A stretch of 13,756 nt of DNA from a virus (taxonomy: Duplodnaviria; Heunggongvirae; Uroviricota; Caudoviricetes), in the IMG/VR virus record IMGVR_UViG_2874945390_000001, positions 1 to 13,756 of that record. One strand, written 5' to 3'. Below the pieces are notes generated by a model, which was not told the DNA's origin, did not search any database, and worked only from the letters and a program-made list of their open reading frames with translations. How positions within the stretch are numbered: the stretch's first letter is position 1; every line of letters begins with the position of its first letter. A program made the translations under genes and the position numbers. This document shows, in pieces, positions 9,179-10,069 of the stretch.

Positions 9179-9322
9179 CTCATTATCTCCGGCTGTACGC
9201 GCGTCATGTTCCTGCCACTGTTTCGCGTGTGCCCAGGCATCACTACCCGCAAAGATAATTACCTCTGTGTCTTTGTGTTTTATTCCGCGTGGCTGTTTTT
9301 TTACGTTCGGTGCCAGTTTCAT
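9179..9322 (-). pseudogene. N-terminal 48 codons of the IS-interrupted primase gene
   Basis: ATG at 9320-9322 overlaps the stop of the upstream 99-aa ORF (ATGA). The frame reads MKLAPNVKKQPRGIKHKDTEVIIFAGSDAWAHAKQWQEHDARTAGDNE, then the AGG target copy, then a stop inside the IS end. Removing the IS and one AGG joins it in frame to the C-terminal part (...DNEPPVWLGEQQ...). Confidence 0.7.
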
Positions 9323-9618
9323 TTTTTACCCCTGAATACGTTAAGCATCTTTTTTATTTCCTGAATATTGGCGCGTGCTTTCTCCCTGCTGGTGGGCACG
9401 TTACGCGGTACGGCCTGCACAAGAGAAAAATCACGGTCGAACTGATAAACAGGCATCACGCAATCATATTCGTAGCCTTCACGACGGTAGGTTACGCGCC
9501 GTTCCTCCACGCCCTTAATTATTACCGTGCCGCCGTACTTATCGCGGTAAATATCCCCGCGCATGAATTTAGTGCGAGTTTTGCCGCTGGCAGTTAAGCC
9601 AGGATATTTAAGTTTCAT
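9319..9618 (-). CDS. Hypothetical protein (99 aa), translationally coupled to the primase
   Basis: ATG at 9616-9618 with GGAGA 9 nt upstream; stop overlaps the primase ATG. Basic protein (MKLKYPGLTASGKTRTKFMRGDIYRDKYGG...); no family recognised. Confidence 0.6.
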   Translation of the reverse strand: MKLKYPGLTASGKTRTKFMRGDIYRDKYGGTVIIKGVEERRVTYRREGYEYDCVMPVYQFDRDFSLVQAVPRNVPTSREKARANIQEIKKMLNVFRGKK

Positions 9619-9623
9619 TATTT

Positions 9624-9857
9624 TTATTCTCCGGTGTGGGGCGCTTTATACTGGTCGTGTAATGTCTCTATTTCCTGCAACTCATTTATTACAGGCTCAA
9701 GAAGCGTTATTAATGCCGTGACAATCCTTGATTTCTGTTTATCACGCTCATTATCGCCAAATGTTTCCAGACACATTTGCAATATTTCCAACATATTTTC
9801 ACTGTGAGAAAGTGCAAGAAATGCGCGGTCTGTTATTTCAATATAAATATCACGCAT
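9624..9857 (-). CDS. Hypothetical small acidic protein (77 aa)
   Basis: ATG at 9855-9857 preceded by a G-rich stretch; ends 6 nt before the next gene's ATG. Looks helical and acidic by composition. Confidence 0.5.
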   Translation of the reverse strand: MRDIYIEITDRAFLALSHSENMLEILQMCLETFGDNERDKQKSRIVTALITLLEPVINELQEIETLHDQYKAPHTGE

Positions 9858-10069
9858 AACCCCCCATTTTCACAATCAGCAACAAGAATATTTTTAGCGT
9901 CATTCAGCGACCGCGTTGCGATGTATCGGATACATTCCAGGGCGAACAATGTGTATTCTTCCCGTTCTTCCTTTCGTGCAAGCTCTGCTGTGCATTCAAT
10001 ATCAATAAGCGCGTGCATCAGCGTAGTGAGTGCGGCGGCGGCTGCGTCCGGTGTGGTTTTATTGTGCAT
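9833..10069 (-). CDS. Hypothetical small acidic protein (78 aa); weak similarity to the adjacent 77-aa ORF
   Basis: Best start is the ATG at 10067-10069 with AGGGGGA upstream, not the TTG at 10099. Its 3' end overlaps the 77-aa ORF start by 25 nt in another frame. Confidence 0.5.
   Translation of the reverse strand: MHNKTTPDAAAAALTTLMHALIDIECTAELARKEEREEYTLFALECIRYIATRSLNDAKNILVADCENGGLCVIFILK

What the first reader, a model, noticed from the sequence alone, without database searches (positions are those of the whole stretch)
9319..10069. Three small ORFs (78, 77 and 99 aa) coupled into the primase operon with no recognisable family
They are tightly packed, with overlapping or near-abutting starts and stops and RBS-like sequences, directly upstream of the primase. 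The 78-aa and 77-aa products are acidic and helical-looking and weakly similar to each other; the 99-aa product is basic. In P4-like elements this position holds the derepressor and helper-manipulation genes (for example epsilon), so these may be helper-interaction or host-takeover factors.
Basis: inference. Interest (0 to 1): 0.5.

Follow-up and report, generated by a model that had tools for sequence, protein, structure and literature searches.

The report
RgdR and two small satellite genes
The three small genes are real and are the last small genes before the primase in a decaying phage-satellite island of Shigella boydii; the 99-aa one is an orthologue of the known regulator RgdR, and the other two belong to catalogued but uncharacterised satellite-only families, so the finding is mostly ordinary.

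Summary
The ORFs exist on the minus strand: C 10069-9833 (78 aa), B 9857-9624 (77 aa), A 9618-9319 (99 aa). They are chained by overlaps: icd-like/C 11 nt, C/B 25 nt, B/A a 5-nt gap, A/primase ATGA. "No recognisable family" is wrong for A. A matches DUF4222 (PF13973, 83 bits) and is 91/99 identical to RgdR (ECs1581) of E. coli O157:H7, a published activator of LEE type III secretion and repressor of motility; it keeps the RGD motif and K35. B and C match PHROG families of unknown function. They occur almost only in Escherichia/Shigella satellite islands and were absent from 50,697 phage records. B and C are not similar to each other. A and B show clear purifying selection; C's signal is weaker. 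Upstream lie two C4/CI-type antisense RNAs, their target sites and two icd-like genes, so the operon has a P4/P1-type RNA immunity leader. None of the three matches the P4 epsilon family. The primase is split by an IS and the integrase is frameshifted. A poly-G tract at the C/B junction varies in length among relatives and fuses or separates the ORFs there. The functions of B and C remain inferred.

The parts
9833..10069 (-). ORF C, 78 aa, acidic (pI 5.0). It is a member of phrog_5146/phrog_2512, found in Escherichia/Shigella satellite islands only. Its start overlaps the stop of the icd-like gene by 11 nt.
   Evidence: the exact sequence is present in S. boydii records
9860..9865 (-). G6 tract at the 3' end of C, 2 nt upstream of the B ATG, so it is also the SD-like element for B. 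In relatives the tract is G7-G11, and its length decides whether C ends at once, ends 8-9 codons later, or is fused in frame to the next ORF.
9624..9857 (-). ORF B, 77 aa, acidic (pI 4.7), predicted two-helix hairpin; phrog_2196. A distant homologue, ECs1580, sits immediately upstream of rgdR in O157 Sakai.
9319..9618 (-). ORF A, 99 aa, pI 10.09. It is an RgdR orthologue (DUF4222), 91/99 identical to ECs1581, with RGD at 20-22 and K35 retained. Its stop overlaps the primase ATG (ATGA).
9176..9322 (-). First 49 codons of the D5-type primase-helicase gene, cut off by the IS insertion
7912..9175 (+). IS3-family insertion sequence (transposase ORFs 7976-8278 and 8314-9132) that interrupts the primase gene; about 3 bp of the target appear to be duplicated
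   Evidence: (HTH_Tnp_1/rve)
6301..7911 (-). Remainder of the primase-helicase gene (D5_N, DUF5906, Pox_D5 domains)
10059..10232 (-). icd-like gene no. 2 (57 aa, NF033153), translationally linked to ORF C
10284..10371 (-). C4/CI-type antisense RNA, copy 2 (RF01695, 74.8 bits)
10442..10708 (-). icd-like gene no. 1 (88 aa with a C-terminal extension, NF033153); it overlaps the c4-a1b1 target element at 10439-10488 (RF03163)
10763..10850 (-). C4/CI-type antisense RNA, copy 1 (RF01695, 78.6 bits)
10875..10951 (-). isrK-type element (RF01394). PMC10111431 states that the C4 and isrK Rfam profiles detect relatives of P4 CI and seqA. A promoter-like site lies at 10987-10958.
11825..12031 (-). AlpA-like regulator, 68 aa (weak PF05930 hit, below the gathering score)
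12507..13756 (-). Tyrosine integrase split by a frameshift into two ORFs (12860-13756 and 12507-12956)

Best explanation
The three ORFs are the last small genes of the early (replication) operon of a PICI/P4-like phage satellite. The satellite is integrated next to yejM in Shigella boydii (CP026836.1). The operon runs on the minus strand in this order: promoter-like site, isrK(seqA-like) element, C4/CI RNA, icd-like gene, a1b1 target, second C4 RNA, second icd-like gene, C, B, A, primase-helicase. Shown: A is an orthologue of RgdR. Its model has a disordered N-terminus carrying the RGD motif, a Tudor/SH3-like beta-barrel and a C-terminal helix. Published work on the O157 protein shows concentration-dependent but non-specific DNA binding, activation of the LEE1 promoter and repression of motility. 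Inferred: in the integrated state the CI/C4 RNA pairs with its targets and shuts the operon off before these genes, as in P4 and in P1 immI. Once the block is lifted, ribosomes pass from icd through C, B and A into the primase by translational coupling. A is therefore made together with the primase and acts as a nucleic-acid- or RNA-polymerase-associated modulator whose effects on host genes are a by-product. Inferred with less support: B and C are acidic helical protein-binding modules in a fast-changing cassette array (C, B', B or alternatives) and most likely bind a helper-phage or host protein. In this particular element the operon is a remnant, because the primase is broken by an IS, the integrase is frameshifted and cassette B' has been deleted.
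For: - A as RgdR: it scores 83.4 bits on PF13973, is 91/99 identical to ECs1581 with the same length and pI, and keeps R20-G21-D22 and K35. The RgdR phenotypes and the 99 aa / pI 10.09 figures are in PMC3378721. [quoted passage not shown]
- Coupling: the ATGA junction with the primase is conserved in Sakai, in H1 and in about 60 IMG/VR loci.
- Operon leader: two C4 RNAs, isrK and c4-a1b1 score above the Rfam gathering thresholds, and there are two icd-like ORFs. PMC10111431 links the C4 and isrK profiles to P4 CI and seqA. PMC8201110 summarises the C4/Icd control of ant in P1.
- B and C: B is a confident helical hairpin. Both are acidic. They were absent from 50,697 phage records and nearly absent from plasmids. 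Hits are confined to Escherichia/Shigella.
- Variable cassettes: the usual order is icd-C-B'-B-A, with variants lacking B or B', or carrying an unrelated 66-aa ORF.
- Selection: purifying selection is clear on A and B and weaker on C.
- Decay of the element.
Against: - Nothing here shows transcription or translation of the three ORFs.
- C has a weak coding signature (pN/pS 0.52, no third-position excess).
- RgdR deletion has a phenotype in uninduced O157 cultures (PMC3378721), so the operon is not fully silent in the integrated state.
- No partner of B or C is known, and fold search for B returned only generic hairpins.
- The P1/P4 regulatory logic is transferred by analogy and was not tested.
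Confidence: 0.6

Rival explanations
1. Replication accessory module. A, and perhaps B, would be dedicated partners of the primase-helicase, for example in origin recognition, helicase loading or recruitment to host SSB or the replisome. The reported effects on host genes would then be side effects of a DNA-binding protein.
For: The A stop overlaps the primase start (ATGA) in every locus examined, which implies co-translation. A B-family ORF lies immediately upstream of A in 61 of the loci scanned, and in Sakai at only 27% identity. RgdR binds DNA non-specifically (PMC3378721). Tudor-like domains occur at the C-termini of the UvrD and PcrA helicases.
Against: No DUF4222-primase fusion was found among the 45 representative clusters; all true hits are stand-alone proteins of about 70-110 aa. 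Truncated 63-aa RgdR copies exist away from primases (PMC3378721). The slot upstream of A is not always of B type. No similarity to known loaders or initiators was found.
Confidence: 0.3
2. One reading: the ORFs are epsilon-like derepressors or helper-manipulation and host-takeover factors that bind a helper repressor or a helper morphogenetic protein.
For: They occupy the same kind of position as P4 epsilon, orf151 and orf106, between the immunity RNA and the primase. B and C are small, acidic and helical, vary as cassettes and are restricted to satellites, which is typical of proteins in conflict with a partner.
Against: No match to PF25738 (epsilon) or DUF5375 (orf106). BLASTP against the P4 proteins gives only E >= 0.26. 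hhalign of A against orf151 gives only 7-13% probability. There are no PADLOC hits. pN/pS for A and B is well below 1 rather than showing diversifying selection.
Confidence: 0.2
3. In this genome the three ORFs are inert remnants. They remain open only because they are short and the element became defective recently.
For: The primase is interrupted by an IS (7912-9175). An IS66-family element is inserted between ssb and the primase. The integrase is frameshifted, cassette B' is deleted, and icd-like gene no. 1 has lost its normal stop. The same state is seen in several S. boydii assemblies.
Against: The exact A, B and C sequences are conserved in 35, 23 and 5 contigs of S. boydii. RgdR acts in trans and does not need a mobile element (PMC3378721). 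The operon leader and all the coupling signals are intact.
Confidence: 0.3

Closest known systems
RgdR (ECs1581) of E. coli O157:H7 Sakai prophage-like element Sp7 / O-island 51 (CP-933C); Pfam DUF4222
   Same: Both are 99 aa with pI 10.09 and are 92% identical. The RGD motif at 20-22 and K35 are kept. In both, the gene overlaps the start of a D5-type primase by ATGA and follows a B-family ORF in a satellite island.
   Different: There are eight substitutions: D10A, Q27K, M33I, H45R, R61D, A70V, S73N and K74V. Four of them (D10A, Q27K, H45R, R61D) are shared with the inactive commensal variant ECED1_1787. The host is Shigella boydii, and I did not check whether its genome carries LEE (from my own knowledge, Shigella uses the plasmid-borne Mxi-Spa type III system instead), so any regulatory target is unknown. 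The adjacent primase is disrupted.
Left (early) operon of satellite phage P4: orf88(AlpA-like) - CI RNA - epsilon - orf151 - orf106 - alpha
   Same: A CI/C4-type immunity RNA with target sites sits upstream, several small ORFs follow, and the operon ends in the primase-helicase. An AlpA-type regulator and an integrase lie nearby.
   Different: The small proteins are not detectably homologous: epsilon is PF25738 and orf106 is DUF5375, and neither family matches A, B or C. Here there are icd-like genes and a duplicated C4 unit, and the primase is of the D5_N/DUF5906 type. The only hint is a weak, inconclusive similarity between A and the N-terminal part of orf151.
immI operon of phage P1 (c4 RNA - icd - ant1/ant2)
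   Same: A C4 RNA, a1b1 target sites and an icd-like ORF are present, and the stop of the icd-like ORF overlaps the start of the next gene. In P1, C4 and Icd control expression of the downstream gene (PMC8201110).
   Different: The downstream genes here are C, B, RgdR and a primase rather than the Ant antirepressor, and there are no ANT or Bro domain hits.
RNA-polymerase-binding Tudor-like domains (UvrD and PcrA C-terminal domains, CarD/Mfd RID, NusG/Spt5 KOW)
   Different: Sequence identity is only 10-18%. The fold is very common. A has an extra C-terminal helix and a basic disordered N-terminus. RNA polymerase binding has not been tested.

Membership tests
RgdR / DUF4222 (PF13973) | Match to the Pfam DUF4222 model above its gathering score | tested here: met
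   83.4 bits against a cut-off of 27, E 8e-24, residues 17-68; phrog_285 at E 5e-30
RgdR / DUF4222 (PF13973) | Full-length similarity to the founding member ECs1581 (99 aa, pI 10.09) | tested here: met
   91/99 identical with no gaps; calculated pI 10.09; the paper's figures are
RgdR / DUF4222 (PF13973) | RGD motif at residues 20-22 and K35, the residues shown to matter for T3S activation | tested here: met
   R20, G21, D22 and K35 are present. Among 50 relatives, position 20 is R in 28 and N, C, H, P, S or K in the rest.
RgdR / DUF4222 (PF13973) | Located immediately upstream of, and overlapping, the primase gene of a P4/PICI-like island | tested here: met
   ATGA overlap at 9322-9319; the same arrangement in Sakai, H1 and about 60 loci
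RgdR / DUF4222 (PF13973) | Activates LEE1/T3S, represses motility, binds DNA | not testable with these tools
   Known only from experiments on the O157 protein (PMC3378721)
P4 epsilon derepression protein (PF25738) | Match to the family model | tested here: not met
   P4 epsilon scores 170 bits. A, B and C give no PF25738 hit at E <= 1, and BLASTP against epsilon gives E >= 0.42.
P4 epsilon derepression protein (PF25738) | Binds and inactivates the helper's repressor | not testable with these tools
   Needs an experiment
P4 CI / P1 C4 RNA-immunity operon | C4/CI-type RNA and its target sites upstream, on the same strand | tested here: met
   RF01695 twice (78.6 and 74.8 bits), RF01394 at 64 bits and RF03163 at 48.5 bits, all above gathering and all on the minus strand
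P4 CI / P1 C4 RNA-immunity operon | icd-like ORF coupled to the downstream gene | tested here: met
   NF033153 hits at E 1.7e-14 and 1.6e-15; 11-nt overlap of icd-like no. 2 with C
P4 CI / P1 C4 RNA-immunity operon | The RNA actually prevents expression of the downstream genes | not testable with these tools
   Inferred from P1 and P4 biology
PHROG 2196 (B); PHROG 5146 / 2512 (C) | Match to the family profile | tested here: met
   B: E 1.2e-33 over 72 of 74 positions. C: E 5e-13 (phrog_5146) and 3e-12 (the N-terminal half of the 154-position phrog_2512). All are annotated 'unknown function'.
RNA-polymerase-binding Tudor-like domains (UvrD/PcrA C-terminal domain, CarD RID) | Structural similarity of the barrel | tested here: inconclusive
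Phase-variable (contingency) homopolymer | Tract length differs between otherwise identical copies and changes the reading frame | tested here: inconclusive
   In relatives, 9 of 12 groups with identical 150-nt flanks hold more than one G-run length, and all three frames are common. In the window's own lineage G6 is constant in 5 independent assemblies. Sequencing error cannot be excluded for the older draft genomes.

The most novel reading that the evidence does not exclude
Two readings are not excluded. (1) RgdR-family proteins are Tudor-domain factors that dock on RNA polymerase, as the UvrD C-terminal domain and CarD do. Being made stoichiometrically with the satellite primase, they would couple satellite replication to transcription complexes and reprogramme host promoters such as LEE1 and the flagellar promoters without sequence-specific DNA binding. 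(2) The poly-G tract at the C/B(') junction is a genuine slippage switch (slipped-strand mutation or transcriptional slippage). It would let satellites toggle between separate C and B(') proteins and a C-B(') fusion, diversifying a helper- or host-interaction factor.
Probability: 0.2. Interest if true: 0.55.

Novelty: new member of a known kind. Interest (0 to 1): 0.3.

Why it matters
The value of the check is mainly corrective. The gene flagged as family-less next to the primase is an orthologue of RgdR, a regulator already tied to EHEC colonisation. The operon it sits in carries a recognisable P4/P1-type RNA immunity leader. Two things remain open and modestly interesting. First, RgdR is reported in every E. 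coli PICI analysed and is always translationally coupled to the primase, yet its role in the satellite's own life cycle is unknown. The Tudor-like model gives a testable idea, namely binding to RNA polymerase or to the helicase. Second, B, C and B' form a satellite-only array of swappable acidic helical proteins with no known partner. The junction between C and the next ORF changes frame through a variable G tract. These proteins are reasonable candidates for helper or host interaction, but nothing here proves it.

Tried and rejected
- B and C as paralogues: rejected (hhalign 0.3% probability, no BLASTP alignment).
- Homology of A, B or C to P4 epsilon, orf151, orf106 or orf88: nothing significant. 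The best result was A against orf151 at E 0.26 by BLASTP and 7-13% hhalign probability, with two different partial alignments, so it is inconclusive.
- Sequence search of solved structures with profiles of A (two alignments), B and C: no hit better than E 0.13.
- Foldseek of the B model against the PDB: only generic designed or natural helical hairpins, E >= 0.35.
- Foldseek of the A model against viral structures: small uncharacterised phage proteins and DUF1653, with no functional information.
- Domain fusions of DUF4222: an exhaustive phmmer search of 1.84 billion representatives gave 45 hits, all stand-alone. The two long hits are InlB-repeat proteins and are spurious.
- PADLOC defence models: no hits for A, B, C or B'.
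- NCBIfam: no hit for A or C and only a far-sub-threshold hit for B (13 bits against a cut-off of 190); the two icd-like genes match.
- Phage collection: B and C have no tblastn match, and A has only two weak Klebsiella phage hits.
- Plasmids: 3-4 E. coli records only.

Full report
**Observation.** The three ORFs are on the minus strand: C at 10069-9833 (78 aa from the ATG; the ORF listing extends it to a TTG at 10099), B at 9857-9624 (77 aa) and A at 9618-9319 (99 aa). Reading the minus strand shows how they are linked:
- The C ATG lies 11 nt inside the preceding icd-like gene.
- The B ATG lies 25 nt inside C, just after a G6 run.
- The A ATG follows the B stop by 5 nt.
- The A TGA overlaps the ATG of the primase (ATGA).
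- Each start has an SD-like purine run.
- Calculated pI values are 5.0 (C), 4.7 (B) and 10.09 (A).

Against 14-42 distinct alleles from related loci, pN/pS in the annotated frame is 0.37 for A and 0.31 for B, compared with 0.85-1.35 in the other two frames. Variable sites are concentrated at third positions. For C the contrast is weak (0.52 against 0.65-0.95, with no third-position excess). C is nevertheless kept open across alleles that differ by in-frame indels. The ORFs and their packing are therefore real.

- B and C are not similar to each other (no BLASTP alignment; hhalign 0.3%).
- The claim of no recognisable family does not hold (see below).
- In addition, only 49 codons of the primase adjoin A. 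An IS3-family element occupies 7912-9175, and the rest of the primase is at 7911-6301.

**What A is.** A matches Pfam DUF4222 at 83 bits against a cut-off of 27. A full-text search for DUF4222 led to RgdR. The original paper (PMC3378721) describes ECs1581 of O157 Sakai as follows:
- It is 99 aa with pI 10.09 and is encoded on O-island 51 / prophage Sp7.
- It activates LEE1 and type III secretion and represses motility.
- It binds DNA without specificity.
- Residue 20 of an RGD motif, and K35, influence its activity.

I fetched the Sakai locus and translated it. A is 91/99 identical to ECs1581 and keeps R20-G21-D22 and K35. In Sakai, too, the gene overlaps the primase start by 4 nt and follows a small ORF, ECs1580. 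ECs1580 is a distant homologue of B (27% identity, E 7e-7). Fillol-Salom et al. (PMC6092414) state that RgdR is encoded by all the E. coli PICIs they analysed. A is thus a new orthologue of a known protein.

- CarD;
- the Spt5/NusG KOW domains.

The fold is very common, so this is a lead and not an assignment. An exhaustive phmmer search found only 45 representative clusters. All true hits are stand-alone proteins, so there is no fusion to suggest a partner.

**What B and C are.** B matches phrog_2196 (E 1e-33). C matches phrog_5146 and the N-terminal half of phrog_2512. All three families have unknown function.
- Homologues are confined to Escherichia and Shigella: 488 clusters for B and 94 for C.
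- Neither protein has any tblastn match in 50,697 phage records, and only 3-4 plasmid records match.
- There are no PADLOC, Pfam or NCBIfam assignments.
- B is modelled with high confidence (pLDDT 93) as a two-helix hairpin. Fold search returns only generic hairpins.
- No paper in the library treats the O157 counterparts.

**Context.** The exact A, B and C proteins occur in Shigella boydii. The window corresponds to CP026836.1, next to yejM.

Upstream of C on the same strand, Rfam finds the following above gathering scores, and a promoter-like site lies at 10987-10958:
- an isrK-type element (10951-10875);
- a C4 antisense RNA (10850-10763);
- a c4-a1b1 target (10488-10439);
- a second C4 RNA (10371-10284).

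Two icd-like ORFs (NF033153) lie at 10708-10442 and 10232-10059. PMC10111431 notes that the C4 and isrK profiles detect relatives of P4 CI RNA and its seqA target in Gram-negative PICIs. PMC8201110 summarises that in P1 the C4 RNA and Icd control the downstream ant gene. The three ORFs therefore lie in the RNA-gated part of an early operon that ends in the primase. Further along are ssb, a lambda-E-type capsid gene and a D-type decoration gene. An AlpA-like gene and the integrase lie on the other side.

The element is decaying in four ways:
- an IS3-family insertion in the primase;
- an IS66-family insertion between ssb and the primase;
- a frameshifted integrase;
- an icd-like gene that has lost its normal stop.

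**Comparison with P4.** P4 has the same order: orf88(AlpA), CI, epsilon, orf151, orf106, alpha. However, epsilon belongs to PF25738, orf106 to DUF5375, and orf151 to no family. A, B and C match none of these. A weak resemblance between A and the first 80 residues of orf151 gives an hhalign probability of only 7-13%, and the two profiles align different segments. I treat it as inconclusive.

**The cassette array and the G tract.** A pattern scan of IMG/VR recovered more than 80 related loci. Counting these, the other loci held at that point and the window itself gives 86 tract sites.
- The usual order is icd, C, B', B, A, primase, where B' is a further roughly 73-aa ORF starting MRDD.
- Some loci lack B or carry an unrelated 66-aa ORF in its place.
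- The window is the only one of the 86 in which C is followed directly by B.
- Alignment with H1 shows a 213-nt deletion of B' between two copies of the shared start sequence ATGCGTGAT.
- A natural 148-aa C-B fusion with the same junction exists in the protein collection (P0400).

C ends in a G run that also serves as the SD for the next ORF. Across the 86 sites the run lengths are G6 (1, the window), G7 (24), G8 (35), G9 (20), G10 (4) and G11 (2). The length decides among three outcomes:
- C stops at a TGA overlapping the next ATG (tail ...GGGYA);
- C runs on for 8-9 codons (tail ...LCV..., which is the window's state);
- C is fused in frame to the next ORF.

Nine of twelve groups of loci with identical 150-nt flanks contain more than one run length. 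The tract is therefore far more mutable than its surroundings, unless sequencing error contributes. In the window's own lineage G6 is constant in five independent assemblies.

**Mechanism, with steps marked.**
- Shown: the gene order, the overlaps, the family memberships, the RNA elements and the decay of the element.
- Established elsewhere: the RgdR phenotypes and its DNA binding; the regulatory logic of C4/CI RNAs.
- Inferred: the operon is held off by the C4-type RNAs. When it is released, it is translated as a coupled chain that delivers A together with the primase.
- Inferred: A acts through DNA or RNA polymerase contact.
- Inferred with less support: B and C are protein-binding modules aimed at a helper or host factor.
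- Rivals: a dedicated replication-accessory role for A and B; epsilon-like derepression; simple inertness in this defective copy.

**Verdict.** The finding is a new member of known kinds. Two modest open questions remain: what RgdR does for the satellite, and what the variable acidic cassettes and their G-tract junction are for.

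Noticed in passing
window 9860-9865 (minus-strand GGGGGG); related loci L003-L086: The homopolymeric G tract at the C/next-ORF junction varies from G6 to G11 among relatives, including copies with identical 150-nt flanks. Its length switches C between a 73-aa form, an 80-aa form and an in-frame fusion with the downstream ORF. The tract also serves as the downstream SD.
   Followed up: partly
window 9849-9858, compared with L001:9684-10118: A 213-nt cassette (ORF B', starting MRDDRFNSLK...) that lies between C and B in 85 of 86 related sites is missing here. 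The deletion lies between two copies of the shared start sequence ATGCGTGAT. A natural 148-aa C-B fusion (P0400) has the same junction.
   Followed up: yes
window 7912-9175: A 1264-bp IS3-family element (two transposase ORFs on the plus strand) is inserted after codon 49 of the primase gene, with an apparent 3-bp target duplication. The same insertion is present in CP026836.1.
   Followed up: partly
window about 3380-5992: An IS66-family element (tnpA-like, TnpB_IS66 and a split DDE_Tnp_IS66 transposase) is inserted between ssb and the 3' end of the primase gene. Its own transposase appears to be broken into two ORFs (4540-5544 and 5541-6038).
   Followed up: no
window 12507-13756: The tyrosine integrase is split by a frameshift into ORFs of 298 and 149 aa that overlap at 12860-12956.
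   Followed up: no
window 10284-10951: The immunity leader is duplicated, with two C4/CI-type RNAs each followed by an icd-like ORF. There is also an isrK(seqA-like) element and an a1b1 target. The first icd-like ORF (10708-10442) runs on through the a1b1 site instead of stopping after about 65 codons as in Sakai ECs1577.
   Followed up: partly
L088 (P4) 7440-7895, compared with window 9319-9618: The N-terminal ~80 residues of P4 orf151 show a faint resemblance to the DUF4222 core (GEIYRS... against GDIYRD...; IPLGRFLREF against MPVYQFDRDF). hhalign probability is only 7-13%. If real, it would tie RgdR to a P4 gene in the same operon.
   Followed up: partly
L010, L015, L053 (about 500-700 nt after the C start): In some satellites the slot immediately upstream of the RgdR gene holds an unrelated ORF of 50-66 aa (MHNHE(S/A)HLPVVLNVPSDYTG...) that does not look helical from its sequence, in place of a B-type hairpin. 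The position therefore behaves as an exchangeable cassette.
   Followed up: no
window 1-2706; L087 9000-11704: The morphogenesis end of the island carries a lambda-E-type major capsid gene, a D-type head decoration gene, a gene annotated in the E. coli relative as head-tail connector, and small unknown ORFs. No terminase, portal or protease gene is seen, either in the window or in the E. coli relative. This gene set differs from that of the HK97-type cfPICI of H1 and Sakai, although both share the same left-hand module.
   Followed up: no
window 9319-9618, residues 10, 27, 45, 61: This RgdR allele shares four substitutions (D10A, Q27K, H45R, R61D) with the commensal ED1a variant that was inactive in the published assays. 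It keeps R20 and K35, the two residues whose changes altered activity.
   Followed up: partly
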